Source: a virus (taxonomy: Duplodnaviria > Caudoviricetes). Taken from it: a stretch of DNA of 64,000 nucleotides. The stretch lies in the IMG/VR virus record IMGVR_UViG_2851870198_000001, positions 32,001 through 96,000 of that record. The stretch is one strand, 5' to 3'. Position numbers and translations under genes: made by a program. Of this stretch, positions 12,001 to 32,248 are shown piece by piece. The first letter of the stretch is position 1. Each line of letters opens with the position of its first letter. The notes under the pieces were generated by a model, which worked only from the letters and a program-made list of their open reading frames with translations, did not search any database and was not told the origin of the DNA.

Positions 12001-15000
12001 GTCTCCGGGGCGTCCGTGCTGGTGTCCTCGGCCGTCGGCTCCGCGGTGCTCGCGGTCCCGACGTCACCCGCCGGGTTCTGGCCCTGCTTGCGGGCCTTGC
12101 GCCGGGTGCGGCGCTTCTGCTCGCGCTGCAGGCCGGCGTGACGCAGGATGTCCGCCTCGCTGGCCTCTTCGCGGGCTATCAGCCCGCCCAGCCGCTCGAC
12201 CTCCGACGTCAGCTCGGACTCGTTCATGGTGAGCGCGTCCGGCTGCGAGGGGGCGTTCGTCTGCCGCTGCTGGAACCGGGCCTCGAACTCCGCCCGCTTC
12301 GCAGCGAGCTTCTTGTCCCGCTCCGCGTCCCGGGCCTCGGTCGTCGGCCAGATGAAACGCACCTGGCCCTTGTCGTCCTGCGTGATCGACGGCGGGGCCG
12401 GGGTCTTCGGCGTCAGGTCGAGGTCCCGGGCGGAGACCTGCGCGAGAACGTCCTCTTCCTCCTCGCCGACCAGGGCGCGCATCTCCGCGTCGAGGGCGTC
12501 GATGGACGCCTTCTGCTGGGCGGCCGCGGCCTCCGTGCTCTGCGGCTGCGCCTTGAGACGCATCACCTCGTTGAGGATCTCGAGCTGGCGGTTGGCCTTC
12601 TCGAACTCCTCAGCGAGCTCGAAGGGCTTGCCCACGCGGACGGACGCCTGCTCGGCCGCCCGCCGCTTGTCGCTGAGCATGTCCTCCTGCCGGCGGACCT
12701 GCGCCTCCAGGTTGGCGATGGAGTCCTCGACGCGCTGCAACGGGATCCGCGGCGGCTTGCCGTCCACGTCGACCAGCTGGTGCGCCTCGTAGGTGCGGGC
12801 GCTGCCGGGGACGGCGGGGAGCTCCAGGCGCACGCCGTTGTCGTAGCGGCTGGCGTAGGAGTTCCAGGCCCGCGAGAACTTGGCGGCGATGTCGAGTCCG
12901 CCGACCTGGCCGATGATCTTCGGCGGCTCGTCGGGGTCGTACGCGCGGCGCCGGCCGTCCGCCTCGACCGCCCGCAGGGCCGCGGACAGTGCCTTGCGTG
13001 CCTCCTCGCGGCCCTCGGTCCCCGCGAAGTCGGTGCGGCCGATGCGGGCGTTGAAGTCCTCACCGCGGGTCGGCTTCCGCTTGGCGATGGCGTCCTGGAG
13101 GGTCGCCACGAGCTTCGTCGTCTGCTCCTCGGCGAGCTCCGCATCGCGGATGGCCCGCTGGAAGCCCTCCTGAGAACGCTGGTGGGCGTTGTACCGGGAC
13201 CGCAGCCGCTTCACGATCGGGCGGAGCTGCGCCTGAGCGATCAGGTGCGGGTCACCCGCGACCAGGGCGCTCGCCTCGTCGGCGTCGAACTTGACCTCGC
13301 CGATGTCCTCCACGACACGCTCGTTGAGCGAGCCGCGCATGAGCTGCCGGATGAACCGCGCCTTGCGGGCGATGGCCTCCCAGAACTTGGCGTCGGTGGA
13401 CCGCTCGGTGGCGTACTGGAAGATCGCGACCTCGGCGTTGGCGTTGCCCTGCCGGATGACACGCCCGTTGCGCTGCTCGACGTCGGCCGGCCGCCACGGA
13501 GCATCCACGTGGTGCAGCGCCGTCGCGCGGAGCTGCACGTTCGTGCCGGTGCCCATCTTGGCCGTGGAGCCGAGGAGCACGGACACCTTGCCGGTACGGG
13601 CCTCGTGGAACAGGCGCGCCTTGGCGGCGTCGTCCTTCGCCTCGTGGATGAACCGGATCTTCTCCGAGGGGATACCGCGCGCGATGAGGAGCTGCTTGAG
13701 CTCGTCATAGGTGGAGAAGTCGGTGTAGCCCTCGCCGTCCTCGCCCGTCGGGTCGGCGGCGTCCTCACCGTCGCCGGCCTTCTTCTTCCGCTTCTTCGTC
13801 TTGCCCGGGTCCTTCGGCGTGCCGAGGTCGAGGAAGACGATCTGCAGGCCGCCCTTCTCAGGATGCGGCGTGGGGTCGGTCTTGCTGGTCGGGTACTCGG
13901 CGTCCTTGGTCTGCTCGTGAATCCGGACGATGTTGTCCGCGACCGTCGGGAGCTTGTTGCCGCCGCCCATCTCGGGGTCGATGAGCCGCGGGTCGAGCGC
14001 GGCCATACGGCCGTCACCGAGGAGCTTGAGGTGGTTGTCCTCCTTCGGGTCGACGCGCCCGCCCGCCAGGCGGGCGGCGCGCGCCTTGATCTCCTCCTCG
14101 TAGGCTTCCTGCGCCTCCGACATCGGCATCGTGATCGTGACGGCCTTGCCGCCGGCGATGTCCGGGACGGGCAGGTCGAGGTCTTCGCTGGTCTTGACGT
14201 CGGCGAAGGCCCGCCACATCCGCAGGAGCTCCGGCACGTTCTGGAACGCCGCCAGGCGCACCTTCTCCGTGTAGGAGCCGTCCGCGCCGCGCTCCACGGC
14301 GCTGACCATCTGCCCGAACGTGGACGCGAAGTCGTCGAAGTCCATCAGGCCGAGCTGCTCAAGCAGGTCGGGGCGCAGGTAGCGCATCATCGTGTGGACT
14401 TCTGCGATGGAGTTGGCGACCGGCGTCGCCGTCGCGAACGTCACCACACGGCCGGTGGTGGACCGCTCGCGCAGCCACTCCAGCTTCATTTCCAGGTCGG
14501 AGGCCCGGTTCGAACCGTCAATGGCCGCGATGGACGACGGCGTGTCGAGGTTCTTGTACATGTGGGCTTCGTCTACGACGACGTAGTCGATGCCCATGTC
14601 CTCGAAGTGGAGGCCAGCGGCGTCCTTCATCCCGCTGAGCTTCTTGTCCAGCTTCTCCCGCAGGGTCTTGAGCTGGGTCTCCATCCGCTTGACCAGGCGG
14701 GTGTCGTTGTCCTCCCCGTCGATGGCCTTCTGCGCCTCGATCTTGGCTTCCAGGCGTTCCAGGCGGCGCCGGATGTAGGTCTCCTGCACCTCCGGACGCA
14801 TCTGGATCGACTCGAACGCGGTCTGCGTCATGATGATCGCGTCGTAGTCGCCGGCCGCAGCCCGGGCGATGAACTCGCGCCGGCCCTTGCCCGCAAGGTC
14901 GTCGCTGCTCGCGGTGAGGATCCGGTTGTTCGCCACGGACTCGGGGAAGATCTCCGCGAACTCCTGACGGAACTGATCCAGCATGTGGCCGGGCACGACG

Positions 15001-18000
15001 AGCGCGGCCTTCTTGACCAGGCCCAGGCGCCGGAGCTCCATGACGCCCATCGCCATCTCGGCGGTCTTACCGGCGCCGACCTCGTGGGCCAGGAGCACCG
15101 ACGGCTCATTGACCATCCGGGCGACGGCGGCGTGCTGGTGGGGGTGCGGCTTGAACCACTCGACCAGGCCCGGGATGGTGCGGCGCTGCCCGTCGTAGGA
15201 GCGGGGCGCCATCGAGTTGAACTGGTCGTTGTAGAGCCGCTTGTACTTCTCGGCGCGGTCCGGGTCGGCCCACAGCCAGTCTGTGAACGCCTCCTTGAGG
15301 AGTTCCGCCTTGGTCTTGGCGTCCTCGGTGGCCTTCGGGTCGAAAATCGAACCGTCGCGGGTCTTGACCGTGACGACGATCTTGCGGTTGGTGAGGATTG
15401 CCTCGGCGAGCTTGATCGCGTCGTAGCCGGGGGCGCTCCATGTGTCGCGGGTGCGGAAGGCGACGGCCTTCTTCACGGAGTCCGGGGCGTCGACCGCCCA
15501 CAGGGATCCGCCCTGCCAGGACACCTTGATCTGGTCGGTGCCGAGGGTTTCCCGAAGGAACTGCTGGACGGGTTCGTGCCCGAGCCAGGAGGCGCCCATC
15601 GGCGCGGCGATCTCACCGGTGGACAGGTCCGGCGGGATGACCCGCTCAAGGTGCTCGACGTTGATGTCGAAGGCGGGGTTCTCCGCCGCGGCCTCGCGGG
15701 CGGCGGTCAGCTTCTCGCGGACGTTGCCCGACAGGTAGTCGGCCGCCATGACGAGCTTGCCGTCCGGCGCCTGGAACGCCAGCGGGTACTCCACGCCGGT
15801 GTCCGGGTCGACCGACCGGGCGGCGAGGAGCTGGGCGACGGCGTCCTCGGCGTCGGTGTCCATGACCCGGGCCAGGCCGTCAGCGGTCAGCTGACCCTCG
15901 CGCTCCATGACGATCGCGAGGGCGTCCTGCGGGCTGTCCGCGAACTCGGCGATCTCCCGGTAGGTGCCCTGCCGCTTGGTGAAGATCGCGGCCCGCGTCG
16001 TCTTCTTGGTGATGTCGTCGTACTCGTCCAGCGGCGAGATGTTCGCCATCGTCGGGTCCTTGGTGAACAGACCCGCCCGCTGCGCCTTCTTGCGGTACTT
16101 CTTCTTGACCGTCTCCCCGGTCTCGGGGTCGGTGGCGGTGCGCTCGGCCCACGTGTACCGGTTGATCGCGCCGTACTTGTCGAAGTACGCCTGGTACTGC
16201 TCGTTCAGCTCGGCCCGCAGACGCTCGATCAGCGAGTCGTCGGCGTCCTTGCGGGACTCCTCCGCCAGCAGCGACTGGAAGGTGTCCCGGATCGCCAGCA
16301 GCCGGCGTCCCTCGTCCGCCTGCGTCTTCGGCACGGGGAAGGGGTGCACCATGCCGTCGCGGACCTGCGTGAACGTTCCGTCAGGCTCGGCCTGCACGTG
16401 CCCGTCCACACGGTCCGAGCCTGGCGGCAGCAGCGTGACCTTCTTCCGGTCCGCCGGGGCGGCCTGGTAGCCCAGGCCGGCGTCCTTCGCCGCGGCGACC
16501 GTCCGCTTGAGCGTCCGCGCGAGGTTGGCGATGGTGTCGCCGTCGCCGTCCACGCGGAGCTCGTTATCACGGTGCAGGCCGTGCCCGACGGCGAGCTTCC
16601 CGAGGACCTGCTCGGGGTGGTCGTGGAAGTAGGAGTTGTAGAAGACCGGCTGTGCACCCTCGGTCTCCGGGTCCGCCTGCCCGGGCAGACCGAAGCGGGG
16701 CAGGGAGTGCACCCACATCGGCGGGTCGTCCTTGCCACGCTCCGACGGCCGCTTGATCTCGCCCTTGCGGTTGCGGCCCGAATTGAACGCCTTGTCCTTG
16801 TCGCGGCGCCGGAAGATCAGCAGGTCGGTCATCACGCTCGTACCGGCGGTGCGCTGGTGCGCGCCGGACGGCAGACGGATCGCGCCGACGAGCTCGGCCT
16901 TCTCCGCCATCTCCATACGGGCGGCCTCGGCCTTCCCGCCGTGACCGTCCATCGTCAGAGCCGAGGTGACCACGGCGACCAGGCCGCCGCCGCGGGTCAG
17001 GTCCAGGCTCTTGAGGATGAAGTGGTTGTGGATCGAGTGGCCGCCCTTGTTGTGCACCAGGTCAGGCACCTTGTACCGGCCGAACGGCACGTTGCCGATC
17101 GCCATGTCGAAGGTGCCGTTCGGGGCACGGGTCTCACCGAACGACTCGTGACGGATCTCCGAGTGCGGGTAGAGCGCACCCGCGATACGGGCGGTGATCG
17201 GGTCGACCTCGACGCCGGTCATCTGCGCACCGTCGGGGGCGTAGCCGATGAAGTTGCCGATGCCCGAGCCGGGCTCCAGCACCTCACCGTTCTCGAACCC
17301 GAGGTCACGGACCGCGGCCCACACCTGCTGGACGATCTGCGGGTCGGTGTAGTGGGCGTTCAGCGTGTTCGAGCGGGCGTCTTCCCACTCGGCATCGGTG
17401 AGGAGCTCCCGCAGCCGCTCCGCGAGCGGCGCGAACTGGGCGTCGGGGCGGGGCTTGAAGATCTGCGGGACGGCACCCCACCCGGAGTAGCGGGCGAGCT
17501 CGGCCTGTTCGTCCGCGGTCGGCGGGCGGTCCTCGTCCTGCAGCCGGTGCAGGATCTCGATGGCCGCGATGTTGGCCTTGGCGCGGTTCAGCGGGGAGGA
17601 CGGGGCGAGCGTCGCCCCGTCGGCCGGCGGCTCGAACGCCGGGACGGCGCCGTTGCGGACCCTCTGCAGCCACTTGGCGGCCGTGCTGGAGGGCGTCGGG
17701 GCCGCCGGCCCCGTGTCGTCGTCCCCTACAGAGGCGGCAACGCCACCGGCGGCATGTCCTTCATCTCCGTCCCCGGCTCCTTCTCCACGCCGTACACCAT
17801 CTCGTGCAGCACCCGCTCGCGAGCCCGCATCCGCACCGACTTCAGCTCGTGCGCCCGCTCCACCACGTCCGTCCCCTCCCGAAGGGGCGGCGCCCACTCG
17901 TCCGTCAGCGCCTCGATTTCCTCGAGAATCTCCTCCGACCGCTGCCGGGCGAACTCCTCCAGCTCCGCGTTGCTGGCCATCGCCGCCACCTCGCTGGGCC

Positions 18001-21000
18001 GGTACGTTTTCCAGAACGTCCGGACGAGATCCTCGTACACCGCTGTTCCTCTCGTTGTGGTCGGCCAGGGCCTTGCGTGCGGCGCTGACGTTGTCGCGCG
18101 CCAGCCGCATCAGCTTCTGGACATACATGTTGTCGCGGCCCTCAAGACCGCGGGTCGCGCGCTGGATGGCATCCAGCGCCCGCTGGAACTCCTCGATCGC
18201 CTCGGACGGGGTCGACTCGCCCCGCTCGAAACGCTCCGCTGCCTCGGCAGAACCGTAGGCGAGCTCCCGGGCGGCCTCATCACCGTGCAGCCGCCCCAGG
18301 TCGTTGATGACGGGCAGGAGCGTGTTCTGCGCCTCCTGCAGCGCCTCGTTGATCTGCTGCTGCAGGGCGGTCTCCGCCGCCATCTTCGCGAGGTCGCGCT
18401 CCTCGGCGCGGGCCGCACGGTCGGCTTCCTCCCGGGCCGCCTGCGCCTTCTCCTCGTCCCGCTCGTGTACCAGGCCCGCGATGGCCGCCTCACGGGACAG
18501 GAACGTCCGCTCGGAGCTGTAGCGGGTGCCGTGGCCGAGCCGGTTCCACTTCCACATACCCCGGCCGCCCTGAAGGGTGGCGTTGTCCGAGCTGTCGCCG
18601 TCGATGGTGACGGGGATGTGGCCCCAGTCGTTGACCGATCCGAGCGCGACGCGGGACAACTGCGCCGAGTACGTCTCGGCGTCGCGGCGTTCGGCCTCCT
18701 CGATGATCTTCCCGCCCTCGACCTCATGGCGGTCGCTCTCTGCGGCGTCGTCGGTCTTCACGGCGGCCCGGACCGCAGCGTCGTAGGCGGCGTCAAGGTC
18801 TTCGCGCGGGACCGTGGACCAGTCCCGGCGCTCCGGCTGGGCCTGCGGCGTCTGCTGCTGCGGGCGCTCCTCCGGTGCAGCCGGGGCCGGGGCGGCTCCC
18901 TGGGCGGGGGCGTTGCCGCTCTGCTGCTGGGTGTCCCGCTCCGCCTGCCGCTTGCGGTACTCCTGCGCCCAGTACGTGTCTTCACGCCCGGCGTCGATCT
19001 CGTACTGGCCGCGGATGTCGTCCATCAGCAGGCCGAAGTCGCGCTTCCATCCGCTGATGCGGGAGGGGTGGCGCTTGTACAGCTCCGGGTCCCACCAGTC
19101 GATCGGCTGACCCGGGCGGCCGGGCTCTTCGAGCTCCGCGCCGAGCCGCATCGCGAACCGGTCGGCGTCGTCCAGCGTCTTGAACTGGCCGCCGGCACCC
19201 CCGGCGTAGCCGAGCGAGCGGCCGTCGTAGGCGCGGACCACCTCGAAGTCGCTGGGGCCCATCTGGATGACCGCGAACCCGCGGTGATCCGACATGGTGA
19301 TCTTCCAGCCCTCACGGCCGGCGTACGCGCGCAGGCGGTCCCGGGTGCGGTCATCGAGCGCCGGGTCGCCACCGTTCTTCCAGTAGTCCCGCAGCTGACC
19401 GGTGGTGCTCGGCTTCTTGAAGCCGTCGCCGTTGTCGTCGTTGCTGGACGGTCCGACGTGGCCGACACCGATGTTGGCCGCGGGCACGCCCGTGGTCTGG
19501 GCGAGCTGCTGGGCGGCCTGCACGAGCGGGTTCGGCCGCTCGGCCGGAGCCGCAGCTGGAGCAGCCGGGGCGGTGGGGGTGGCGGGGGTGCGCTTCTCGG
19601 CGGCGCCCTGCTTCTTCTTCGCGGCCTTCTCGGCGAACGCCTTCTTCGCGTCCTCGCCGGCCTGCCGCACCATCTTCTGGCCCTCGGGGGACTCAAGGCG
19701 CTGGTGGTAGCCGGGGCTGTCCCAGTCGAACGGCGTGCCGTCGATCTGTGCGACTTCCAGGCGGTTGGCGAACTCCATCGCCTCGCCCTTGCGTTCCGAC
19801 ATGGCCAGGCGGGCGCCGCTGCCGGAGACGATGACGGCATAGCCGGTCTTGGGCTTGCCGCCCTTCTCCACGGTCATCTTCGCGACGACGAACGTACCCC
19901 GGCGGGAGAGCTGCGGCTTGTCCAACTTGGCGAACAGGCCGGCGGTTTCCTTCTGGTGGCGCTGCTGTGCGGCCTTGTCGCTGGTGGCCGGCTCCAGGTT
20001 GCCGGTCTGCCAGTGCTGCTGCAGCGTGTTCAGGTTGGCGAACCGCTTGCCGCCCTTGTTTCGGGCCTTGGGTGTGGCTGCGGCGGGCTGGCCCGACGTG
20101 GACTCGGGCTTCATGCGGTAGGAGGTGCTGGCGGTGCCGTCCGAGCGCCACGCGCGCGGGACGAGCGGCTGATCCTTCCTCCGCTTCTTCGACGGCTTCG
20201 GGATCGGCTTCTTGCCGTGCGCCTGGAACCGGCGGTACGCGAGGTTCAGCGCGTCGGCGAGGTTCTGGGCGTAGCGGGTGACGTCTTCCTTGCCGTCCTG
20301 CTCGGCGAGCTCGGCCAGGCGCTCGGCGTCGTCTGCGAACCACGAGAGCCGGTCGAACTCCGTCGGGTCGGCCTGATCGGTCGGGCTGTCGGCGAGGTCG
20401 AACGGCTCCCCGCCACCGAGGTAGTCGGCCAGCTCGTTGTAGACGTCGTCTGCCTCGCTGTTGCCCCACTCGCCGGGCCAGGCGTTTTCCAGGTCCTCGA
20501 AGTAGTCGTTCGACAGGTCACGCAGGGCGCGGCGGGCGTGGTTGCTGTCCCAGAACTGCAGGTAGTGCTTGTTCACCTCGGGGCCGTCGGCGCGCAGCGC
20601 GTCACCGTTGCCCATGACGTGCCGACGGCGGCGGCTCTCCGGGCCGGCGCCCCCGTTGTCCGTCGTGATGGGCAGCAGATCGGGGAAGTCACGCAGCGGG
20701 TGGTTGCCGCGGTCCTGCGCGGAGCGGCCGGGGTCCTCGTCGCTGTCGTCCGGGCGGGACATGACGCGGCCCTGCGGGACCATCGGCTCGTCATCGTCGT
20801 CTTCGGGGTCGTCCGGGTCGGCGCCGAGGTCCACCCCGTCGACGTCGTCCCCGATCGGGTTGCCCTCGTCGTCCTGGTCGTGCGGGTCGTCGGGGGTCTG
20901 GCCGTTGTCACCGGGGTCGGTCGCCGGGTGTTCGTCGGTGTCGGGGTCGTCGTCCTTGTCGGGGGCGTGCTCGCCGTAGCCCAGGCCGCGGTTCTGGTCG

Positions 21001-21320
21001 CCGTAGCGCCGCTCGTCCTCGTCGCGGACCTTGCGCTTGCTCTTGGTCGGCGCCGAGCCGTCGGGGCGCGCGACCATGGTGAGCCGGGAGGCGTGGATGG
21101 TGGACCGCTTGCGCGTGGCCACGTTCTCCACCAGCACGTTCCGGCCGCCGAGGGAGCGCAGGACACGCGCCATGCCGCCGCCCCAGAGCCGCGCGATGCC
21201 GCCGGTCTCGATGAACCGGCCCTTGCTGTCGCGGGGGTGCAGGTCCGGGTTCCAGGGGCGGCGCAGCCTCTTGGTTTCGAGGCTGGCGATGATGAGGTCT
21301 GCGGCGCTCGTGATCGGCAT
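1..21320 (-). CDS. Giant DarB-like polyvalent protein (>=7,106 aa, 3' end outside window): N6-MTase + SNF2 helicase + UvrD helicase + repeats
   Basis: One continuous minus frame, from ATG 21320 (alternative ATG 21332) off the window edge. The antisense ORFs 261-3956, 4392-6431 and 6456-21635 are all in its codon register. Motifs: WNPDLHPRDSKGRF (~21230), LEPGSGIG (~17270), NVPF (~17085), HEVGAGKT (~15075), DEAH (~14565), QRNGRVIRQGN (~13460), ALAGTGKS (~10370), WDEAQD (~9785), VGDSNQAIYGFRGA, TAHKSKGLE, AYVALTRA (~8700). Confidence 0.92.
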   Translation of the reverse strand, partial: MPITSAADLIIASLETKRLRRPWNPDLHPRDSKGRFIETGGIARLWGGGMARVLRSLGGRNVLVENVATRKRSTIHASRLTMVARPDGSAPTKSKRKVRDEDERRYGDQNRGLGYGEHAPDKDDDPDTDEHPATDPGDNGQTPDDPHDQDDEGNPIGDDVDGVDLGADPDDPEDDDDEPMVPQGRVMSRPDDSDEDPGRSAQDRGNHPLRDFPDLLPITTDNGGAGPESRRRRHVMGNGDALRADGPEVNKHYLQFWDSNHARRALRDLSNDYFEDLENAWPGEWGNSEADDVYNELADYLGGGEPFDLADSPTDQADPTEFDRLSWFADDAERLAELAEQDGKEDVTRYAQNLADALNLAYRRFQAHGKKPIPKPSKKRRKDQPLVPRAWRSDGTASTSYRMKPESTSGQPAAATPKARNKGGKRFANLNTLQQHWQTGNLEPATSDKAAQQRHQKETAGLFAKLDKPQLSRRGTFVVAKMTVEKGGKPKTGYAVIVSGSGARLAMSERKGEAMEFANRLEVAQIDGTPFDWDSPGYHQRLESPEGQKMVRQAGEDAKKAFAEKAAKKKQGAAEKRTPATPTAPAAPAAAPAERPNPLVQAAQQLAQTTGVPAANIGVGHVGPSSNDDNGDGFKKPSTTGQLRDYWKNGGDPALDDRTRDRLRAYAGREGWKITMSDHRGFAVIQMGPSDFEVVRAYDGRSLGYAGGAGGQFKTLDDADRFAMRLGAELEEPGRPGQPIDWWDPELYKRHPSRISGWKRDFGLLMDDIRGQYEIDAGREDTYWAQEYRKRQAERDTQQQSGNAPAQGAAPAPAAPEERPQQQTPQAQPERRDWSTVPREDLDAAYDAAVRAAVKTDDAAESDRHEVEGGKIIEEAERRDAETYSAQLSRVALGSVNDWGHIPVTIDGDSSDNATLQGGRGMWKWNRLGHGTRYSSERTFLSREAAIAGLVHERDEEKAQAAREEADRAARAEERDLAKMAAETALQQQINEALQEAQNTLLPVINDLGRLHGDEAARELAYGSAEAAERFERGESTPSEAIEEFQRALDAIQRATRGLEGRDNMYVQKLMRLARDNVSAARKALADHNERNSGVRGSRPDVLENVPAQRGGGDGQQRGAGGVRPAAVGGDSRGNRGADGRVGAAPSGGDGRGGAGARAEVGADAGSRAGAARDGVRRGEGAGDGDEGHAAGGVAASVGDDDTGPAAPTPSSTAAKWLQRVRNGAVPAFEPPADGATLAPSSPLNRAKANIAAIEILHRLQDEDRPPTADEQAELARYSGWGAVPQIFKPRPDAQFAPLAERLRELLTDAEWEDARSNTLNAHYTDPQIVQQVWAAVRDLGFENGEVLEPGSGIGNFIGYAPDGAQMTGVEVDPITARIAGALYPHSEIRHESFGETRAPNGTFDMAIGNVPFGRYKVPDLVHNKGGHSIHNHFILKSLDLTRGGGLVAVVTSALTMDGHGGKAEAARMEMAEKAELVGAIRLPSGAHQRTAGTSVMTDLLIFRRRDKDKAFNSGRNRKGEIKRPSERGKDDPPMWVHSLPRFGLPGQADPETEGAQPVFYNSYFHDHPEQVLGKLAVGHGLHRDNELRVDGDGDTIANLARTLKRTVAAAKDAGLGYQAAPADRKKVTLLPPGSDRVDGHVQAEPDGTFTQVRDGMVHPFPVPKTQADEGRRLLAIRDTFQSLLAEESRKDADDSLIERLRAELNEQYQAYFDKYGAINRYTWAERTATDPETGETVKKKYRKKAQRAGLFTKDPTMANISPLDEYDDITKKTTRAAIFTKRQGTYREIAEFADSPQDALAIVMEREGQLTADGLARVMDTDAEDAVAQLLAARSVDPDTGVEYPLAFQAPDGKLVMAADYLSGNVREKLTAAREAAAENPAFDINVEHLERVIPPDLSTGEIAAPMGASWLGHEPVQQFLRETLGTDQIKVSWQGGSLWAVDAPDSVKKAVAFRTRDTWSAPGYDAIKLAEAILTNRKIVVTVKTRDGSIFDPKATEDAKTKAELLKEAFTDWLWADPDRAEKYKRLYNDQFNSMAPRSYDGQRRTIPGLVEWFKPHPHQHAAVARMVNEPSVLLAHEVGAGKTAEMAMGVMELRRLGLVKKAALVVPGHMLDQFRQEFAEIFPESVANNRILTASSDDLAGKGRREFIARAAAGDYDAIIMTQTAFESIQMRPEVQETYIRRRLERLEAKIEAQKAIDGEDNDTRLVKRMETQLKTLREKLDKKLSGMKDAAGLHFEDMGIDYVVVDEAHMYKNLDTPSSIAAIDGSNRASDLEMKLEWLRERSTTGRVVTFATATPVANSIAEVHTMMRYLRPDLLEQLGLMDFDDFASTFGQMVSAVERGADGSYTEKVRLAAFQNVPELLRMWRAFADVKTSEDLDLPVPDIAGGKAVTITMPMSEAQEAYEEEIKARAARLAGGRVDPKEDNHLKLLGDGRMAALDPRLIDPEMGGGNKLPTVADNIVRIHEQTKDAEYPTSKTDPTPHPEKGGLQIVFLDLGTPKDPGKTKKRKKKAGDGEDAADPTGEDGEGYTDFSTYDELKQLLIARGIPSEKIRFIHEAKDDAAKARLFHEARTGKVSVLLGSTAKMGTGTNVQLRATALHHVDAPWRPADVEQRNGRVIRQGNANAEVAIFQYATERSTDAKFWEAIARKARFIRQLMRGSLNERVVEDIGEVKFDADEASALVAGDPHLIAQAQLRPIVKRLRSRYNAHQRSQEGFQRAIRDAELAEEQTTKLVATLQDAIAKRKPTRGEDFNARIGRTDFAGTEGREEARKALSAALRAVEADGRRRAYDPDEPPKIIGQVGGLDIAAKFSRAWNSYASRYDNGVRLELPAVPGSARTYEAHQLVDVDGKPPRIPLQRVEDSIANLEAQVRRQEDMLSDKRRAAEQASVRVGKPFELAEEFEKANRQLEILNEVMRLKAQPQSTEAAAAQQKASIDALDAEMRALVGEEEEDVLAQVSARDLDLTPKTPAPPSITQDDKGQVRFIWPTTEARDAERDKKLAAKRAEFEARFQQRQTNAPSQPDALTMNESELTSEVERLGGLIAREEASEADILRHAGLQREQKRRTRRKARKQGQNPAGDVGTASTAEPTAEDTSTDAPETATDSDTRPSEPPQTEAPEAPEAPETDESTAPQEPEDDESEASEAPETQTDESAAPEQPAQAPEREASSTGESADNSQAAQPQPEETPAAAQPSPARERAPRNRERQQPAVRPFANDREWRQALAGVEAAQGEITRAVEAAYGRGEEPGSARALRTAVFDAIAAQEAGDFDDATGGLAEAHEHAQRLRDELPSDVDAEPLARFMRVVDDYLARHAVTVEKRRREDEQRDRAEQQADAALRESLGLSPAPAPAPEADASQTSQPSEPDTRPAAAPSAGRAWEGGDFQPGDTVHFWNRSAFNAEQRGEFLRSAGPDSAILRGRNGDEREVEYIDVVGRTRDGEFQDDPPATSAGNEERPVAAPDPQPAPAAPSPVPERAERPRSAPSDSRPVAGTSPADMTDEEIADEVDDLHDRIEALRDATDSVDLAYRFRLEKRKFELEDAERRRWKPTPEYDDDGKVKERDRGDVIRDRLSGYGLNDAEAVGLVERVEDLPAAKEHGYSDEEWARISAEASARESYPPTEEQNIIIEGAARRGLNMAVMALAGTGKSSTLKMLSHRMPGKKIVYLAFNRSVAAEAREAQARGEYAKNLTASTANAYAAKVADKRLNNRLPSNRRNGFKKLSAQQIADRMRWYDTVKAGNRDLSPGGAATVAERMIREWAKSADAEMLPKHITGAKSAQERRDLFNAVKPLADRMWDNLTDPTRGDPDEDLTMDFDYIVKMWALGGYKLDADTLFWDEAQDVNPVMEGVVRGALAQGVQVVAVGDSNQAIYGFRGAADALGKLPVDARATLTQSFRFGPAVADAGNRFLRLLGTRMRLKGFDRKQSRLDTIKPGDETMVIARTNAGVALAAVEALSAGRRVAVSGGVKDLQEFVQAARALANGERTDHAELARFNGMAFDDILEAVKGDPDLQQLKSLFDLLEKHADDIDKLLESGAQRAETENVGGRVWVNLDWNDPKVDQLKRWLGDGKNNGVGKLLYDPATRRYFYEPGKRDVPWKNERSGRSGVHKVDNKLSLEEAQQKIDAHLAKLYPQEDSEGGRLVDEKREHDVLVTTAHKSKGLESERVRIADDFRGPEYNEHGNIKWETIPDDEALRVAYVALTRATDVLDAGSLGWVFQATREDDPTLPPNGDYRRDWVLDEFNVGDRIDFQEEDGTPNVGTVDRIDAPGMYVRYEVDGQDREQWIGPAQVLRLNGQGRPQLPVASDEELDRALAEGRYEPVSTTPAPSADTAPDPAPSPSADAPETAAGRQWGVDDWVVTPNGEGRVIVSDGDKVIVLDGGGAPRTYEPRQLSMPGEARTAEHDAPTAKEAARQEKRQRDSEAAQSPEGLQLFYGSRLANLNLDEGHGQVLDEDGNVVGWVRRRGSVWLGQDARGGTAQGSTAESASDPLHGPREAAQQIDGGLGDSHMRLPLQDTSWRHLRPEEGRDEIQYSEFSDAQREQFFKLIKGWEKSSDSELSQAAQGWSRGLNYQQMERIAAAFTAAADDVDTSTPEGRREQAVLNRAADKVRAQARRAWLNWQTMPPPGEPDVVGNYDNPEWVPYGHRGDAGRSGAPAPTAAGDGADAPAAASRYGGDMVPASEIREGDWVSVDQDDIFGRGPGRIVGKVTGVRVYDGRVTFDVSAKRPKSEKGTFGEHAIVGLGDLVERLPEGNPGREDTSDLARRLEEHEGEQRARRKRVPEGWTAVEDPMSIEMRPGDRFRVRDLLEHGTRGRQMYKEVVVRGSEPVRFDSDGIALWGDELNPSVLFRQHNIVAVPEDRVARSGGQNAPAVPSAAAEGTRERAGEFDGKPLELGEPTVVPHSSLPDRADMSETRRAVYLDGERIGSLQTSGGPASRGWVGAHHDVHGSLGWFQPSDGEVTGTATAVSNPAEAAALAVAEANDSPMLGFPGDTTGRADGIKRWAGVWAEPQPAGVRNAYLDRVLAHHSPDWLGSVDPERVRLWLRTAVAVDPLAQYDENTRRNLAEAPPEARQYLAGLAADLRSSVQQTGEELRLDLRRVLVDHIATEKGREKARELAGEMFKDRTGKIRTAVREQIARARAGAAEHGLSEQQAEDFIVNVVGGDNPDQVALGVRGAYPEAMRPLHAAKSDADAYWSAFAGWARREDSGRWHGQYWDNGRRTTLGAPPAPFADAQAGSGVVKVGEAELPKGMRWARGSDLRQGDIFHAAQSRQPGDDTFNGLEPPSYVIHTHRGGREGDVRSVTLDSDHGQTHVKPDQWVVIVEDPEPAVRKKARSRARTDTFTQWEVPVDDETYELGGPDRVSALAARAELTPIAKDKFDREAEWTVSVDGVEIGRIENDREKVLLYHSETSDGQRRTWHGQELAKAGLVAAHDAATGRGEQDDDRPAQTDERDRRDGRREDNDDQRAPKREREGREGGSGGGGEPPNGGDAPQRPGDDDSGQDSGRQGDGDQEGREDDDRRRRRNRSGNDRPRPEGAGGGPDLPRPRVPHMPDIDSDAPDDGPDGGASRSGDGSGQDNDAGRTLDRAAAARRFGSADRMRDLARQAVAVDDLGPAGSYDEVWMGGRLIGHAIHTTGGSWAPYSKFTRDPHPDFQEREGAVAELVRLAQEHGELPVDRLAPSTPFIGSVVSMPKEAPGRLDLTPEESERWRALSGLLEDLRAGRPASGNVADDISQAIDELDWVTGRYKPNRDEFWKPGADAANLRNLLNTIRPDNPRASHHQISKARAAWKALQALEESGSAGTATPIRDLRPGDVVRVMGKRPSWDINDTEYSGYLRGTPKRVTRTRDGQKERVWQLRLGSTPWDDNPDAQRVTPRHEMTVQVPADGTGSLLARADDVDMPTEDYVARSRATANAPDGTSTGGRTDGVGAGPAAPQGDIPRVPSTDEMREQYATGEKEIISAEGERVLFGSPERMRELAEEGTAPTPALQADQGEQVWRNGRFIGRLFAPHRFVNADNPEEVWWSQEPWDSRGINFSTREAAIANLVLRDKERGEPDLSVVPERLARGIALYDNGLAFNPDDEFRGYPSLEDNADDMRRYRGLRAHLAQLGRGESPSGNVADDLAHAHDELLWLDSTHYKEPESEQGKGHMVGPGSLARMLGDALNSLRPEDPRATHHQHRQDRAAKQFLDQLKADGGESRAVSVPVGELQPGDIVRLSGRITGLYPGATGDQIGYVVGKPARATITQNGKRTNARRIALSPSPRSQYGVGGSTFLIPADENVRRLMAAGDVRLPLDEHTYGRQLGETSRLDHPNGLDRAPGSSSAPDAGSPEPGQRDARAGGSATSQDREAPSGQAPARSEDTPVTGGAAAPSQGGAASRSGDAPARGTDASPTAAGSRSTGSGPQSGERTGTGTGGAPASRPQQSEAPAADTGTDEPPAPPEPVGGRPAEWVRVSDLGMGDLVRVDGTTKRGTTRTLAGYVVDGPREIQTTQGRKMQDKHRILISDTPDGAGSPVWVSPDAAAARATRDGDDTTVTEGSPRTGADSDVLTGRISGRVATDASGNGLFPGSLVTDSRGNDGVVVGANAATVQVRFGDDRTDDVQAPSSLNVTDGGAARPAGWTPDGHRVDVGHVVGDRDGNMLGTVEEVDGDTATVATPDGMTPMPVTGLRVLGGTADSSDQQPKVARVERVTAGDLREGDVMVRDGHPTKITGIERDEETTLIGSDDPDTGETDWQAVPNGTPVDRALDAQGGAPDLAPEDTPKPAEPITSHEPKPHVEPVTGPTVDPQLSPEERDAATDRSASATSDPDAEQAAARIGQDLPVTPQQASALADDLREGADPATPEGRAAKRAADHLDRAASPSGEAAGTTSDTAPEDVVIGGKRRAPNPLNPQINYIDGISREAWEQAKATYARSQTTNLGTPDWMFESMLKGIYGLKPDAIRDVLAHLKNGTEPAEFSRRAGTPDAGVSEGRPEPGTVGSVGEGDIIALPSEDNPDEMAAYRVVHIQEAAGGMRVLTVEDGDGIRSKRTLASGDALYQLPEPDVEPQAPTPTPAAGTDGSRNPNPAPNWDTVQNDYADAVARAVVDSAIEG
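17726..18040 (-). CDS. TnpV-like small helical protein nested out of frame inside the giant gene
   Basis: GAGAGGAA RBS just before GTG. Normal protein composition, with a TnpV-like pattern (FWKTYRP...RARERVLHEMVY). The host frame is G/R/A low-complexity over this span. Confidence 0.8.
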   Translation of the reverse strand: MYEDLVRTFWKTYRPSEVAAMASNAELEEFARQRSEEILEEIEALTDEWAPPLREGTDVVERAHELKSVRMRARERVLHEMVYGVEKEPGTEMKDMPPVALPPL

Positions 21321-21357
21321 GCGGCGGAACATGCATGCCGGGAGTGGTTAACGTCGC
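21321..21357 (-). promoter_or_regulatory. Class A (late-type) promoter of giant gene
   Basis: GCGAC-N19-CATGTT-ccgccgc-ATG. Confidence 0.65.
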
Positions 21358-21394
21358 GGCCTCGGATTTCCGGCGGTGAGGGACTGGGGCCGGG

Positions 21395-21613
21395 CTACAT
21401 GGTTTCGGTGAGTATGTGGATCAGGAACCACACGGAGAAGCCGCTCCAGCCGACGGTGAAGAGGGCTCTGCCCGCTTTCGAGGTGCGGATCCGGAACAGG
21501 GTGCGGACGTTCTCCGACAGGGTGTCGCCGTCCTTGCGGTTCATCAGCGCCCACGTCTCAGCGAGCGCGAAGAGGGAGGTCCATCCGGCCCAGATAAGCC
21601 AGCTGTTGGTCAT
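21395..21613 (-). CDS. Small 2-TM membrane protein (72 aa)
   Basis: AGGAG RBS, ATG 21613, two hydrophobic Trp-rich segments. Confidence 0.7.
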   Translation of the reverse strand: MTNSWLIWAGWTSLFALAETWALMNRKDGDTLSENVRTLFRIRTSKAGRALFTVGWSGFSVWFLIHILTETM

Positions 21614-21656
21614 GGCCGTGCTCCTGACTGCGTGAAGGGGAAGGGGGCGGGGTGCG

Positions 21657-24125
21657 TCACTGGTCACCGCCCTGCTCGCGGGTGCGGTAGCGCAGCCGGC
21701 AGCGGCAGTTGATGGTGAGGTGGATGGGGGCGAGCTGATCGCCGGGGAACCGCATCGGGTAGCCGTCGACCTGGTACGGCTCGGCGACGGGCAGGGTGGT
21801 GCCGTCCACGGCTTCGTGGGCGGGCCGTACGCGGTCGTCGCGGCGGGTGACCCAGGTGCGGATGATGCCCGGGCCGATCGCCGCGGCGGTGGCCTCCGCG
21901 GAGCCGTTGACGGTGGCGACGGCCGCTGTCTCCGCGGCGTCGGTGATCTTCGTGGCGGCCATGTCGCGGAACGCGGTCCGCGCGAGCGCGACCAGGTCGT
22001 CAATGTCCTCGGTGACGTCCTGCCCTTGTGTGAGCAGGGTGGTGATCGTGTCGAGGAAGGCGCGGGCGATGTTCTCGGCGGCCGCCACGGCGTCCAGGAC
22101 CGCGGCCGTGATGCGGGGCGATGCCTCCGCCGGCAGGGGCACGCCGAAGGCGTCCGCGGTGCGCTGGGCGGTGGTGGCCGCGATCCGGGTGAGGGACCGG
22201 GCGAGCGCGCTGGTGACTTCCTCCAGCCACCGGTCGGTGCCGACGATGCGGTCGACGTCCAGCGGAGTGGTGCCGCCGCGGCTGTCCTGGGGGCTCTGCG
22301 GCCGCCAGAACCGGGTGCCCTTGCGGGCCTTGGGGGAGCGCAGGCGGGCGGTGATGACGCCCTCCTGCCGGTCGAACAGGGACTCCAGCGCCAGGGCTAC
22401 GGCGTCGCGGGCGCGGTCGAAGTCGGTGTCGGTGACCTCGAACTCCGGCCCGACGTGCGGGCTCTGGTGGGGGAGTGCCTTGGTCTGCAGGGTGCGGGCG
22501 TCCTCGACGGCGGCCGCGGCCGCGCCCGGCTCCGTCTCGGGCATCTCGCGGGCGTCGGCGACGGCGGCGGCCGCTTCACCCGGCGCCGAGGGGACGGCGT
22601 CCGCGCGGGCCTCGGCGACCGCGCCGGCCGCCGCGCCCCGTTCGGCGCCCATGGCGTCGGCAGGCGCTTCGCCGCCCTCGGCGCGGGCCTGCGCGACCGC
22701 TTCCGCCGCGGCGCCCTCCCCGGGTCCGGCCCCGGGGTCGAGCGGCGCGTTCGGATCGCCGCCGGCCCCGGGCATGGGACCGCCCATGCCCATGCCCATG
22801 CCGCCTTGGTCGCCCTGGATGCCGAGCGCGGCCGCGTCCTGCGGGCGCAGCGGAACGGGCGCCTTCTGCGGGGAGATCCACAGGGCGCGGGAGTGCGCGT
22901 TGTTGTAGGCGGGCAGGCCCGCGCGGCGCCGGTACTCGTCAATGGAGATCAGGCCCGCCTCGAACTCCTCGCGGGCCTCCTGGCGGCGCTTGCGGCGCGG
23001 CAGCTCCAGGGCCTGCACGGTGGACGTGTCGTAGCGGATGGACAGGTCGGCGCCGCCGAGGTCACCGGCGAACGCGTCAGCGATCAGCGACAGGTGGCCG
23101 AGCTCGGTGTGAATCCAGAACCCGTACTCTTCCTGCTCCGCGTTGTCGAAGGTGCGCCCGGAGGCGTTGCCGGTGACCGACTCGGGAACACCGAACGCGC
23201 CGAGAATCTCGATCTTCGCGTTCTGCGCGGCGTGCTCGTAGGCCATCTCACGCGGGCGGGTGGCGAGGTCGACGTACGTCATGCCGCCCTGCCCGGCGCC
23301 GACGACGGACACGTGCCCGGCGTACTCGGAGCCGGGCAGGAACCGTGCCTCCAGCCGGTCCATGTCCGCGTCGGTGAGCGAGCTGGTGTCGACGGCCACG
23401 ATCCCGCCCGGGCGCGCGTCGTTCTTGATGAACGCCACGTTGTACATGCGCGACAGGTGGTCGAGCTCGATGCTGATGCCGGCCGCTTCCAGCGGGGTCT
23501 GCCCGGAGAACGGATCGGTCGGGTGCGGCTCACGGATCCAGCGCACGCGTTCGGGTTCGAGCTCACGGACGTGCCCGTACAGGGTCGTGAACTCGAAGTG
23601 CTTGATGTACTCGCCCTTGTCGTCCGGCACGGGGATGACCCGGTCCGGGGGCAGCAGGTCGAGGCGGGTGATGGTGCCGCGGTTGGAGCGCGTGACCTCC
23701 AAGAACGCGCCGCGCTTGGACAGCAGGATCTGCGCGGACAGCCGCCGCCGAAGCTGCGCGCCGGACTCCAGCGGGTTCGCCTTCGGGCCGTTCAGCAGCC
23801 GCAGCAGCGGATGGTCGTCTATGACCTCCTCGAACTCGCCGTCTTCGGTGAGGCCGCGCCCGATCTGCAGGGGGAGCCGGGCGGCGTGCTTGCCCATGGT
23901 GTCGATGGCCTTGTAGACCCAGATGACACGCTCGTATCCCTCGGTGACGACACGGCCGATGTCCCAGCCGTCCGCGCGGCCTTCGGTGCCCCAGATGTTG
24001 GTGGTACCGGCGTAGGCGGTGGACGTGTACCCGCCCGTCCACGTGATCGTTTTCGACTCGTCCGGTTGGGGGCCCGGCGTCTGCAGCATGTTGCGCAGCG
24101 CGGGGAACCAGCGGCGTCGCGCCAT
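21657..24125 (-). CDS. Phage portal protein fused to C-terminal MuF/SPP1 gp7-like head morphogenesis domain
   Basis: HK97-like portal motifs (HPLLRLLN..PKANP, LDLLPPDRV, GQTPLEAA, FIKNDARPGG, ILGAFGVP). C-terminal WVTRRDDRVRPAH...FPGD...NCRC. Confidence 0.9.
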   Translation of the reverse strand: MARRRWFPALRNMLQTPGPQPDESKTITWTGGYTSTAYAGTTNIWGTEGRADGWDIGRVVTEGYERVIWVYKAIDTMGKHAARLPLQIGRGLTEDGEFEEVIDDHPLLRLLNGPKANPLESGAQLRRRLSAQILLSKRGAFLEVTRSNRGTITRLDLLPPDRVIPVPDDKGEYIKHFEFTTLYGHVRELEPERVRWIREPHPTDPFSGQTPLEAAGISIELDHLSRMYNVAFIKNDARPGGIVAVDTSSLTDADMDRLEARFLPGSEYAGHVSVVGAGQGGMTYVDLATRPREMAYEHAAQNAKIEILGAFGVPESVTGNASGRTFDNAEQEEYGFWIHTELGHLSLIADAFAGDLGGADLSIRYDTSTVQALELPRRKRRQEAREEFEAGLISIDEYRRRAGLPAYNNAHSRALWISPQKAPVPLRPQDAAALGIQGDQGGMGMGMGGPMPGAGGDPNAPLDPGAGPGEGAAAEAVAQARAEGGEAPADAMGAERGAAAGAVAEARADAVPSAPGEAAAAVADAREMPETEPGAAAAAVEDARTLQTKALPHQSPHVGPEFEVTDTDFDRARDAVALALESLFDRQEGVITARLRSPKARKGTRFWRPQSPQDSRGGTTPLDVDRIVGTDRWLEEVTSALARSLTRIAATTAQRTADAFGVPLPAEASPRITAAVLDAVAAAENIARAFLDTITTLLTQGQDVTEDIDDLVALARTAFRDMAATKITDAAETAAVATVNGSAEATAAAIGPGIIRTWVTRRDDRVRPAHEAVDGTTLPVAEPYQVDGYPMRFPGDQLAPIHLTINCRCRLRYRTREQGGDQ

Positions 24126-32185: not shown

Positions 32186-32248
32186 ACTGGCTCCTGTTCT
32201 GCTTCGACACCAGAACCGTACCCGCGGTCGGCTCCGCCGGTACACGAA

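What the first reader, a model, noticed from the sequence alone, without database searches (positions are those of the whole stretch)
17726..18040. Complete TnpV-like gene overprinted inside the giant gene, just before its methyltransferase domain
Seen: a 104-aa same-strand, different-frame ORF with its own strong RBS and typical codon bias. Over exactly this span the host frame stays open but becomes G/R/A low-complexity linker. Known: the sequence pattern resembles TnpV of Tn4451-type elements, whose function is unclear. Inference: a fully nested gene locked to the MTase-helicase module, which could act as chaperone, inhibitor/antitoxin or packaging adaptor. I do not know of this nested architecture being described, and gene callers would normally miss it.
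Basis: partly seen in the sequence, partly recalled or inferred. Interest (0 to 1): 0.8.

Follow-up and report, generated by a model that had tools for sequence, protein, structure and literature searches.

The report
Small gene hidden inside giant gene
A complete, conserved 104-residue TnpV-like gene is written in a second reading frame inside a 7,694-residue phage-plasmid gene, just ahead of its DNA methylase part, and the same arrangement recurs across actinobacterial plasmids, where annotation handles it inconsistently.

Summary
Window 17726-18040 (minus strand) holds a 104-aa ORF with a GTG start and the RBS GAGAGGA. It lies in the +1 frame of a giant ORF that is 7,694 aa in the full record.

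Over this span, third-position GC moves from the giant frame (0.41) to the nested frame (0.95). This is the only place in the giant gene where that happens.

The arrangement is conserved. In 35 of 41 related loci (Streptomyces, Kitasatospora, Micromonospora, Nocardia, Micrococcaceae; phage-plasmids and conjugative plasmids), the small ORF is followed in the -1 frame, without a stop, by the conserved start of the methylase-helicase module. That module has no start codon of its own.

Only the nested frame is under purifying selection on its residues (omega 0.17-0.70 in five groups). The host frame shows none (omega 1.0-2.2), but it stays open far more often than chance allows.

AlphaFold gives pLDDT 95 for the nested frame and 52 for the host frame of the same DNA.

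Homology to TnpV (PF14198) is real but distant and below Pfam's cut-off. The function was not tested. My best guess is an acidic helical partner or chaperone of the methylase-helicase.

I found no published description. The nested architecture is a new variant of known kinds.

The parts
17726..18040 (-). Nested TnpV-like gene: 104 aa, GTG start, TAG stop included, +1 frame of the giant gene.
   Evidence: GC3 is 0.95. Nested omega is 0.38, CI 0.23-0.59. AF2 gives pLDDT 95.4 and pTM 0.83. It is the only PF14198 hit in the record.
18047..18053 (-). Shine-Dalgarno-like GAGAGGA, 6 nt upstream of the nested GTG.
   Evidence: A core of at least 4 nt of AGGAGG lies at -18..-4 in 34 of 35 related loci.
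17724..18041 (-). Host-frame linker of the giant protein, codons 1098-1203. It is G/A/R-rich, is read from the same DNA, and is constrained only to stay open.
   Evidence: Host omega is 1.02. AF2 gives pLDDT 52.5 with no secondary structure. The host frame is open in 24 of 24 loci, against 0.002-0.68 expected per locus.
1..21332 (-). Giant polyvalent gene. The ATG is at 21332 and the gene runs past the window's left edge, 7,694 aa in the full record.
18041..21332 (-). N-terminal 'A' module of the giant gene, 1,097 aa. It evolves fast and matches no family. Its N-terminus carries LHPRDSKGRF.
   Evidence: No Pfam or PHROG hit. dN/dS is 0.58-0.77 for pairs in the window clade (mean ratio 0.67). 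The motif is shared with L002.
17480..17636 (-). Conserved start of the methylase-helicase module (F[EQR]P..LAPS..AN..A..L....R.AT..EQ..LA.[WY]SGWGA) in the host frame. There is no start codon between the nested stop and this region.
16887..17147 (-). Eco57I-like N6-adenine methylase match, giant residues 1396-1482.
   Evidence: 20.4 bits, below the cut-off of 25.3.
13446..14606 (-). SNF2-related domain plus Helicase_C.
   Evidence: SNF2-rel_dom 20.3 bits (below 24.9); Helicase_C 30.4 bits (above 23.5).
9669..10394 (-). UvrD-type helicase N-terminal domain.
   Evidence: 53.5 bits, E 3.7e-14.
21657..24125 (-). The upstream neighbour: a portal protein with a MuF-like head-morphogenesis end.
   Evidence: phrog_2662 at 2.4e-81; phrog_2468 and phrog_3517 head morphogenesis.

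Best explanation
Two proteins are read from one stretch of DNA.

Shown by sequence and comparison:
- The giant gene's ribosomes read frame 0 straight through 18041-17724. This yields a disordered Gly/Ala/Arg-rich tether that joins the variable N-terminal module to the methylase-SNF2-UvrD core.
- The only requirement on that frame is that it contains no stop.
- The same DNA, one base further on, carries a complete gene with its own Shine-Dalgarno and GTG. It encodes an acidic four-helix protein (pI 4.75) of a distant branch of the TnpV family, and its residues are under purifying selection.
- The pairing is ancient. In the simplest relatives (actinobacterial plasmids), the methylase-helicase gene starts with a conserved leader peptide, M-A-R-R-K-K-Q-I-D-G-Q-L-S-[LF]-E-x-L-W. 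This lies 76-91 nt upstream of the small gene's ATG in 12 loci; one locus has a longer leader. The gene crosses the whole small gene in the -1 frame and goes directly into the methylase module.

Inferred:
- The small protein is made by internal initiation on the same mRNA.
- It works as an obligate partner of the methylase-helicase (chaperone, adaptor or brake for a protein that travels with the DNA into a new cell). This resembles small acidic chaperones encoded beside their secreted clients.
- The overlap makes the two genes inseparable.
- I put about 0.8 on the architecture and about 0.3 on the partner or chaperone role.
For: Frame switch. GC3 switches frame in the window and in all 7 first loci. 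It is unique within the giant gene.

Conservation. Of 25 loci (the window plus L002-L025, some redundant), 22 have an intact nested ORF with the -1 frame open at least 1.3 kb upstream and to the locus end. L004 has the minimal form. L010 and L016 do not fit. Of 41 loci, 35 have the methylase-N motif in the -1 frame with no stop after the nested stop: 30 by pattern, plus 5 window-clade loci with YSGWG.

Start signals. 34 of 35 loci have an SD core before an ATG or GTG.

Selection (own OLGenie-like counts):
- Nested omega: 0.38 (CI 0.23-0.59), 0.70 (0.44-1.14), 0.49 (0.25-0.93); 0.17 (0.09-0.27) and 0.49 (0.34-0.72) in Micrococcaceae plasmids.
- Host omega: 1.02, 1.24, 1.77, 2.16, 1.32 (same calls).
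- In the window clade, sites that are synonymous only in the nested frame change at 0.38. The mean flank dS is 0.35 downstream and 0.55 upstream.

Host frame kept open. It is open in 24 of 24 and 11 of 11 loci (three loci are in both sets). The chance of this under synonymous redrawing is 0.002-0.68 and 0.001-0.064 per locus.

Host translation must start upstream. No host-frame start lies between the nested stop and the conserved motif. The leader peptide is conserved at the residue level while the DNA differs.

Fold. The nested frame gives pLDDT 95.4 and pTM 0.83 from 20 sequences. The host frame of the same DNA gives 52.5 and 0.10 from 16 sequences.

Family. There are 738 representatives at E<=1e-3, and the 150 best are nearly all 85-270 aa. 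18 of 81 sampled hit PF14198 (best 2.3e-8), with no rival family.

Charge. 20 of 20 family members have pI 4.3-5.2.

Virion context. A portal-MuF gene lies directly upstream.
Against: There is no direct evidence of translation for either frame. No RNA run was listed, and no ribosome profiling or proteomics was available.

In group g2 the nested omega CI reaches 1.14. Extreme GC3 (0.97-0.98) limits synonymous change there, so these ratios are rough.

The loci within a group are related, so the per-locus 'open by chance' figures are not independent.

One representative protein (P0040) carries a QLSLF-type leader in the same frame as its TnpV domain. That hints at a fused form somewhere, and I could not fetch its locus.

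The partner or chaperone role rests on linkage, size, charge and analogy only. Fold searches gave nothing above noise.

The window protein itself fails Pfam's TnpV cut-off.
Confidence: 0.75

Rival explanations
1. Programmed -1 ribosomal frameshifting. Ribosomes start at the small gene's own start, and a fraction slip -1 near its end. This makes a TnpV-methylase-helicase fusion, and the small protein is the unshifted product.
For: The methylase module always lies in the -1 frame and begins 3-25 codons after the nested stop with no start of its own. P0040 shows a leader and a TnpV domain in one frame.
Against: A canonical X_XXY_YYZ heptamer lies within the last 40 nested codons in only 1 of 28 loci. 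A conserved host-frame start, SD and leader peptide lie upstream of the nested gene in the minimal loci. In 22 loci a long N-terminal module is already in the host frame. Frame 0 therefore reaches the methylase without any shift.
Confidence: 0.06
2. The nested ORF is a relic or a by-product. It is no longer translated, and its apparent conservation comes from constraints on the giant gene or on the mRNA.
For: No expression data exist. Off-frame ORFs are common in DNA of 70% GC. A 5,059-aa shadow ORF lies on the other strand.
Against: Purifying selection acts on the nested residues and not on the host residues. Start and SD are kept in 34 of 35 loci. GC3 follows the nested frame. The fold is confident. 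The family has 738 representatives, and the best 150 are mostly small proteins. A stand-alone copy exists without any giant gene (L010).
Confidence: 0.04
3. The giant ORF is really two or three genes, or an assembly frameshift, that only look fused because the -1 frame of a GC3-rich gene rarely has stops.
For: Host codon position 1 equals nested position 3 (95% G/C), so stops are rare. P(open) for the window is 0.41 by chance.
Against: No stop ends the upstream module in any of 22 loci. The upstream and downstream modules are always in one frame. The methylase module lacks its own start. Lower-GC plasmids keep the frame open at P 0.001-0.064. Laid contigs show no indels, and an independent assembly (L009, 99% identical protein) has the same frames.
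Confidence: 0.03
4. The architecture is the same but the role differs. The small protein acts on DNA or on recombination (the role once postulated for Tn4451 TnpV from a likeness to lambda Xis), or it is a transcription regulator of the element. It is not a partner of the giant protein.
For: A passage in PMC3158075 says TnpV was postulated to act in excision. In 4 Arthrobacter plasmids a 'recombinase family protein' gene lies directly upstream of the small gene.
Against: The model is all-helical and the protein is acidic (net -9), which is unlike a basic winged-helix Xis (recalled). The constant neighbour across 35 of 41 loci is the methylase-helicase, not a recombinase. PMC12634702 states that the function remains unknown.
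Confidence: 0.2

Closest known systems
TnpV of Tn4451-type elements (Pfam PF14198)
   Same: It is a small protein of about 100-130 aa on mobile elements. It gives the only Pfam signal for the window protein (E 0.0093) and for 8 of 14 close relatives. 18 of 81 wider relatives match at E<=1e-3. NCBI's pipeline names many actinobacterial homologues 'TnpV protein'.
   Different: The window protein scores 16.4 bits against a cut-off of 27. Even the PGAP-named L047 protein (20.0 bits) and the related pTC2 (L046) protein (23.9 bits) score below it. Here the gene is embedded in a methylase-helicase gene. In Tn4451, as I recall, tnpV sits beside tnpX and catP.
P1 DarB and the methylase-helicase dyad of 'polyvalent proteins' (Iyer et al. 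2017, PMC5512222)
   Same: The host gene has an adenine-methylase-like region followed by SNF2 and Helicase_C, with an extra UvrD helicase. The paper notes this combination for a gigantic Streptomyces plasmid protein (passages; domains). It lies next to head genes.
   Different: A term search of that paper found no occurrence of TnpV, overlapping or frameshift. Its supplements could not be opened. The nested gene at the N-terminal border of the dyad is not part of the described architecture.
Lambda Rz/Rz1 and other same-strand embedded phage genes (recalled)
   Same: A complete gene in the +1 frame lies inside another gene on the same strand. Each has its own start, and the two products work together.
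   Different: Here the host is a protein of about 7,700 aa. The overlapped host segment is an unconstrained linker. The embedded gene belongs to an old, widespread family, and the pair is kept across a bacterial class on plasmids as well as phages.
Small acidic chaperones encoded beside translocated clients, such as VirE1 for VirE2 (recalled analogy)
   Same: A small, acidic, helical protein is encoded with a large DNA-acting protein that is delivered into a recipient cell.
   Different: There is no sequence or fold match. Binding was not tested here.

Membership tests
TnpV (Pfam PF14198) | Score at or above Pfam's gathering cut-off (27 bits). | tested here: not met
   16.4 bits, E 0.0093. 16.7 bits in the six-frame search of the record. 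8 of 14 close relatives match, all below the cut-off.
TnpV (Pfam PF14198) | Homology shown through intermediate sequences, with no competing family. | tested here: met
   Profile A2 finds 738 representatives. 18 of 81 sampled hit PF14198 at E<=1e-3 (best 2.3e-8). The other three families were each hit by only 1 member. The Atlas neighbours include 'putative TnpV protein' at 0.90.
TnpV (Pfam PF14198) | A small protein encoded on a mobile element. | tested here: met
   104 aa on a 125.9-kb virus record. Relatives lie on 61 actinobacterial plasmid records.
DarB-like methylase-helicase polyvalent protein (host gene) | An adenine methylase domain followed by an SF2 (SNF2) helicase in one polypeptide. 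| tested here: met
   Eco57I-like 20.4 bits and SNF2-rel_dom 20.3 bits are both just under their cut-offs. Helicase_C at 30.4 bits and UvrD at 53.5 bits are over theirs. The order is as in the family. 15 sequences share invariant methylase-type motifs such as NVPFG.
DarB-like methylase-helicase polyvalent protein (host gene) | Carried in the virion or transferred with the DNA. | not testable with these tools
   Only context is available: a portal-MuF gene lies directly upstream.
Same-strand overlapping (nested) gene pair | Both frames are open, and the embedded frame is under purifying selection. | tested here: met
Same-strand overlapping (nested) gene pair | The host frame is maintained beyond chance across the overlap. 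| tested here: met
   It is open in 24 of 24 and 11 of 11 loci, against P 0.001-0.68 per locus. The loci are related, so these are not independent trials.
Same-strand overlapping (nested) gene pair | Both products are detected. | not testable with these tools
   No RNA holder was listed. No profiling or proteome data were available.
Programmed -1 frameshift cassette | A conserved slippery heptamer near the end of the upstream frame. | tested here: not met
   Found in 1 of 28 loci.

The most novel reading that the evidence does not exclude
An ancient dual-coding module spans the class Actinomycetes. The anti-restriction-type methylase-helicase of actinobacterial plasmids and phage-plasmids has its N-terminal tether written in the -1 frame of the gene for its own obligate partner, a TnpV-family protein. 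The overlap makes the two inseparable. The small protein is the dedicated chaperone or delivery adaptor of the giant one. This would give the TnpV family its first function, and it would give a textbook case in which an old folded protein's gene is overprinted by a younger disordered linker.
Probability: 0.3. Interest if true: 0.8.

Novelty: new variant of a known kind. Interest (0 to 1): 0.66.

Why it matters
Long same-strand overlaps with support for both frames are rare in bacteria and their elements, and annotation pipelines are built to reject them. Here one is kept across a whole class, on phage-plasmids and on conjugative plasmids. The division of labour is clean: one frame is a folded protein under selection, and the other is a spacer that only has to stay open.

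Three consequences follow:
- It links the uncharacterised TnpV family to a defined partner, the DarB-like methylase-helicase, and so makes TnpV's function testable.
- It shows that public annotations of these plasmids are inconsistent. Some drop the small gene. Others begin the helicase after residues that are conserved in relatives, so they appear truncated.
- It gives a natural system to study how two start sites 76-91 nt apart share one mRNA.

Tried and rejected
- Fold searches of the confident model. Foldseek against PDB and BFVD found nothing at E<=0.001. VIA-align wide gave a best Z of 6.0 (Cse1 C-terminus) and 5.2 (lambda GamS), within the noise the tool describes for helical models.
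- PDB by profile. The only hit was a designed repeat protein, which I take as a composition artefact.
- NCBIfam and PHROGs gave nothing for the small protein.
- tblastn of the small protein against 50,697 phage records found no match.
- Fused forms. A word-index search for longer proteins with profile A2 found one 217-aa protein only, and the tool calls that weak evidence.
- P0040 locus. It was not found in metagenome contigs or viral contigs, and P0027 was not found either.
- L049 (Dermacoccus) turned out to be a decayed, frameshifted copy.
- Sequencing runs. No RNA holder was listed. The nine substitutions seen inside the ORF in laid contigs fall 2, 3 and 4 on nested codon positions 1, 2 and 3. 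That is too few to use.
- Literature. Searches for 'TnpV' (38 papers, mostly unrelated acronyms), 'TnpV'+'helicase' (2), 'Tn4451'+'TnpV' (2) and overprinting terms (14 hits, 13 listed) turned up no description of this architecture. I read only search listings and 'find' passages.

Full report
**1. What is there**

The window is bases 32001-96000 of a 125.9-kb IMG/VR virus record with about 71% G+C. On the minus strand an ORF runs from the ATG at 21332 past the left edge of the window. With the neighbouring 20 kb of the record it totals 7,694 aa.

Pfam finds, in order:
- an Eco57I-like methylase stretch at residues 1396-1482 (20.4 bits, under the cut-off);
- SNF2-related (20.3 bits, under the cut-off) plus Helicase_C (30.4 bits);
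- a UvrD helicase (53.5 bits).

The first 1,097 residues match nothing. The gene just upstream is a portal protein with a MuF-like end (phrog_2662, 2.4e-81). The host gene is therefore a DarB-type 'polyvalent' methylase-helicase of a Streptomyces phage-plasmid. A contig of Streptomyces pseudogriseolus NRRL B-3288 carries the same small protein at 99% identity (L009).

**2. The observation**

At 17726-18040 (minus strand) there is a 104-aa ORF with a GTG start and a TAG stop, offset +1 from the giant frame. GAGAGGA lies 6 nt before the GTG.

A GC3 frame plot shows the giant frame at 0.9 or more everywhere except here. Over this span it falls to 0.40-0.56 while the nested frame has 0.86-0.94. 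Across all 7,694 codons this is the only place where host-frame GC3 collapses. Twenty-two of 382 windows were flagged, and those outside codons 1081-1161 keep host GC3 at 0.75-0.90.

The host frame stays open and reads G 31%, A 19%, R 13%. No indels appear in contigs of four DNA runs laid on 17500-18300; one run may be the source.

**3. It is conserved, and older than this element**

*Close homologues.* Called proteins of 104-123 aa, 69-91% identical, exist in 7 clusters.

*First set of loci.* tblastn and pattern scans fetched loci from Streptomyces plasmids, IMG/VR contigs, and genomes of Streptomyces, Actinacidiphila, Kitasatospora, Kineosporiaceae and Nocardia. I examined 25 loci (the window plus L002-L025). 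Some are redundant: L008 equals L007, L022 equals L014, and L021 is close to L014.
- In 22, the nested ORF is intact and the -1 frame is open at least 1.3 kb upstream and to the locus end.
- L004 has no N-terminal module.
- L010 is a stand-alone small gene.
- L016 is a partial remnant.
- GC3 switches frame in every one of the first 7 loci.

*Wider sampling.* A profile search of 401 sampled Actinomycetes genomes found 14 with a match. A tblastn with one of these found 61 actinobacterial plasmid records (Arthrobacter 16, Streptomyces 10, Nocardia 6 and others). Many are named 'TnpV protein' by their annotators.

*The minimal form.* In these more distant loci the small gene is followed, in the -1 frame, by the conserved start of the methylase module, F[REQ]P..Q.DLAPSG..AN..A..L....R.AT..E..LA.W[SG][SG]WG. 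It begins 3-25 codons after the nested stop. No host-frame start codon lies in between.

A host-frame ATG or GTG with its own SD lies 76-91 nt upstream of the nested ATG in 12 loci (L033-L038, L046, L047, L053, L055, L056, L058). The plausible GTG starts of L044, L052 and L054 and the ATG of L057 lie at 82-85 nt. The peptide it opens, M-A-(G/R)-R-K-K-Q-I-D-G-Q-L-S-[LF]-[ED]-x-L-W....R-[DN]-E-Q-V-R, is conserved between Micrococcales and other orders while the DNA differs. L051 has a longer leader.

*Overall count.* Over all 41 loci scored, 35 have the methylase-N motif in the -1 frame without a stop. Thirty were found by pattern. The 5 window-clade loci read YSGWG instead; SGWGA is invariant in A4 for the window, L005 and L006, and I infer it for L007 and L009 from near identity. 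The six exceptions are L010, L016, L030 (contig end), and L032, L038 and L049 (frameshifted or decayed).

**4. Which frame is selected**

I counted differences by their effect in both frames, in the manner of OLGenie, with bootstraps over codons.

| Group | Nested omega (dNN/dNS), 95% CI | Host omega (dNN/dSN), 95% CI |
|---|---|---|
| Window clade | 0.38 (0.23-0.59) | 1.02 (0.63-1.73) |
| Streptomyces g2 | 0.70 (0.44-1.14) | 1.24 |
| Streptomyces g3 | 0.49 (0.25-0.93) | 1.77 |
| Micrococcaceae g4a (57-66% GC) | 0.17 (0.09-0.27) | 2.16 |
| Micrococcaceae g4b (57-66% GC) | 0.49 (0.34-0.72) | 1.32 |

In the flanks the host frame shows dN/dS 0.09-0.25 downstream (the methylase side) and 0.43-0.67 upstream. 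So the residues of the small protein are constrained and the host-frame residues are not.

The host frame is nonetheless never interrupted. It is open in 24 of 24 loci where synonymous redrawing of the nested codons gives 0.002-0.68. It is open in 11 of 11 Micrococcaceae loci where chance gives 0.001-0.064. The loci are related, so these are not independent trials, but the direction is clear.

AlphaFold2 agrees. The nested frame gives pLDDT 95.4 and pTM 0.83: four helices plus an ordered tail, from 20 sequences. The host frame of the same DNA gives pLDDT 52.5, pTM 0.10 and no secondary structure, from 16 sequences.

**5. How it most likely works**

*Shown:*
- One continuous host reading frame links a variable N-terminal part to the methylase-helicase core through a spacer that must only stay open. 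That N-terminal part is a 26-30-codon leader in plasmids, and 400 to about 1,300 residues in the phage-plasmid clade and some plasmids.
- An independent gene with its own SD and start (34 of 35 loci) occupies the +1 frame of that spacer.

*Inferred:* the small protein is made by internal initiation on the same mRNA. Because its gene cannot be deleted or moved without breaking the giant gene, the two are inherited as a unit.

*On the role,* the evidence is indirect:
- constant linkage to the methylase-helicase (35 of 41 loci);
- small size, helical fold and acidity (pI 4.3-5.2 in 20 of 20);
- a setting in which the giant protein is expected to travel with the DNA. DarB as a virion protein is from passages of PMC5512222.

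I favour a dedicated partner (chaperone, adaptor or brake) at about 0.3. A DNA-directed or regulatory role is next, at about 0.2. It echoes the old Xis-likeness idea for TnpV (passage of PMC3158075). A resolvase-type gene also sits directly upstream in 4 Arthrobacter plasmids.

A -1 frameshift that would fuse the small protein to the methylase is unlikely. A slippery heptamer occurs in 1 of 28 loci, and a conserved upstream start and leader already serve the host frame.

**6. Direction of overprinting (inference)**

The small protein belongs to a large family. There are 738 representatives at E<=1e-3, and the best 150 are nearly all 85-270 aa. The family reaches PF14198, which was defined on Tn4451-type elements. 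The host-frame stretch is disordered and neutral. The simplest reading is that the giant gene's frame runs over an older gene, not that a new gene arose inside the giant one.

One representative (P0040) has a QLSLF-type leader in the same frame as its TnpV domain. At least 12 of the 23 N-terminally extended representatives show the +1-frame shadow of the leader instead. I could not fetch P0040's locus, so the ancestral state stays open.

**7. Family and novelty**

*TnpV membership.* The window protein scores 16.4 bits against a cut-off of 27, so I do not file it as a threshold member. Homology at superfamily level is supported:
- 8 of 14 close relatives give weak hits, and 18 of 81 wider relatives match at E<=1e-3 (best 2.3e-8), with no rival family;
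- PF14198 hits only this ORF in the whole record;
- Atlas neighbours are named TnpV.

*Literature.* Term searches inside the polyvalent-protein paper found no mention of TnpV, overlap or frameshift (its supplements were closed). Four library searches found no description of the architecture.

*Public annotation is inconsistent.* Of the 15 annotated plasmid loci I opened:
- 4 show only the giant CDS over the small ORF (L002, L003, L045, L046);
- 10 annotate both genes and start the helicase 39-330 nt after the small ORF's stop, inside or after conserved residues;
- 1 (L004) lists only the small gene, because the plasmid table omits genes that cross the record start.

I rate this a new variant of known kinds (nested phage genes, the TnpV family, DarB-like proteins), with interest about 0.66.

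Noticed in passing
L046:1129-1204, L047:2919-3000, L033:1425-1500 and relatives: The minimal methylase-helicase genes open with a conserved leader, M-A-R-R-K-K-Q-I-D-G-Q-L-S-[LF]-E-x-L-W. Its Q-L-S-[LF] core recalls, from memory only, the QL[SD]LF sliding-clamp-binding motif. This was not tested. The window's giant gene lacks this leader and has a 1,097-aa module instead.
   Followed up: partly
P0040 (representative protein): This is the only one of 23 N-terminally extended representatives in which a QLSLF-type leader is in the same frame as the TnpV domain. It may be a fused form or an indel. Its locus could not be fetched.
   Followed up: partly
window 21200-21332 (-); L002:2257-2400: The N-terminus of the giant protein carries LHPRDSKGRFIETGG, shared almost letter for letter with the Streptomyces sp. 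NBC_00536 plasmid gene although the modules differ in length (1,097 against 578 aa). It may be a head-targeting or processing signal.
   Followed up: no
window 6456-21635 (+): A 5,059-aa ORF lies on the opposite strand of the giant gene. It is a shadow of the GC3-rich coding strand, not a gene.
   Followed up: partly
L044, L047, L051-L058 (plasmid records): RefSeq and GenBank annotations start the 'helicase-related protein' 39-330 nt after the small gene's stop. That is within or after the conserved F[RIV]P..Q..LAPSG..W[GS]SWG region in the loci read closely (L044, L047, L058), so these proteins appear N-terminally truncated in the databases.
   Followed up: yes
L047:2258-2935, L052:158-868, L053:114-713, L054:158-868: A small 'recombinase family protein' gene lies directly upstream of the TnpV-like gene in four Arthrobacter plasmids. 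This echoes the recombinase-TnpV neighbourhood of Tn4451-type elements.
   Followed up: no
L010 (Actinacidiphila soli contig) and L016 (Streptomyces griseoflavus contig): L010 carries a stand-alone copy of the small gene (68% identical) with no giant frame around it. L016 carries a partial copy (residues 47-104 only). The small gene can therefore persist or decay on its own.
   Followed up: partly
P0033 (612 aa): This representative has seven matched stretches of the C-terminal half of the family profile, within a repetitive protein. It is an odd tandem form and was not examined.
   Followed up: no
window 4830-5010 and about 900-1200 bases beyond the window's left edge (giant codons ~5440-5560 and ~7420-7560): In these windows the +1 frame's GC3 (0.87-0.93) slightly exceeds the host frame's (0.80-0.90). 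No ORF passed the GC3 filter within the window (which did not cover the part beyond its left edge). This is probably a composition effect and not a second nested gene.
   Followed up: partly
window 25349-25780, 28081-29655, 30989-32257 (-): Genes upstream of the portal gene include a NUDIX hydrolase, a radical-SAM protein and a 422-aa transcription regulator (PHROG matches).
   Followed up: no
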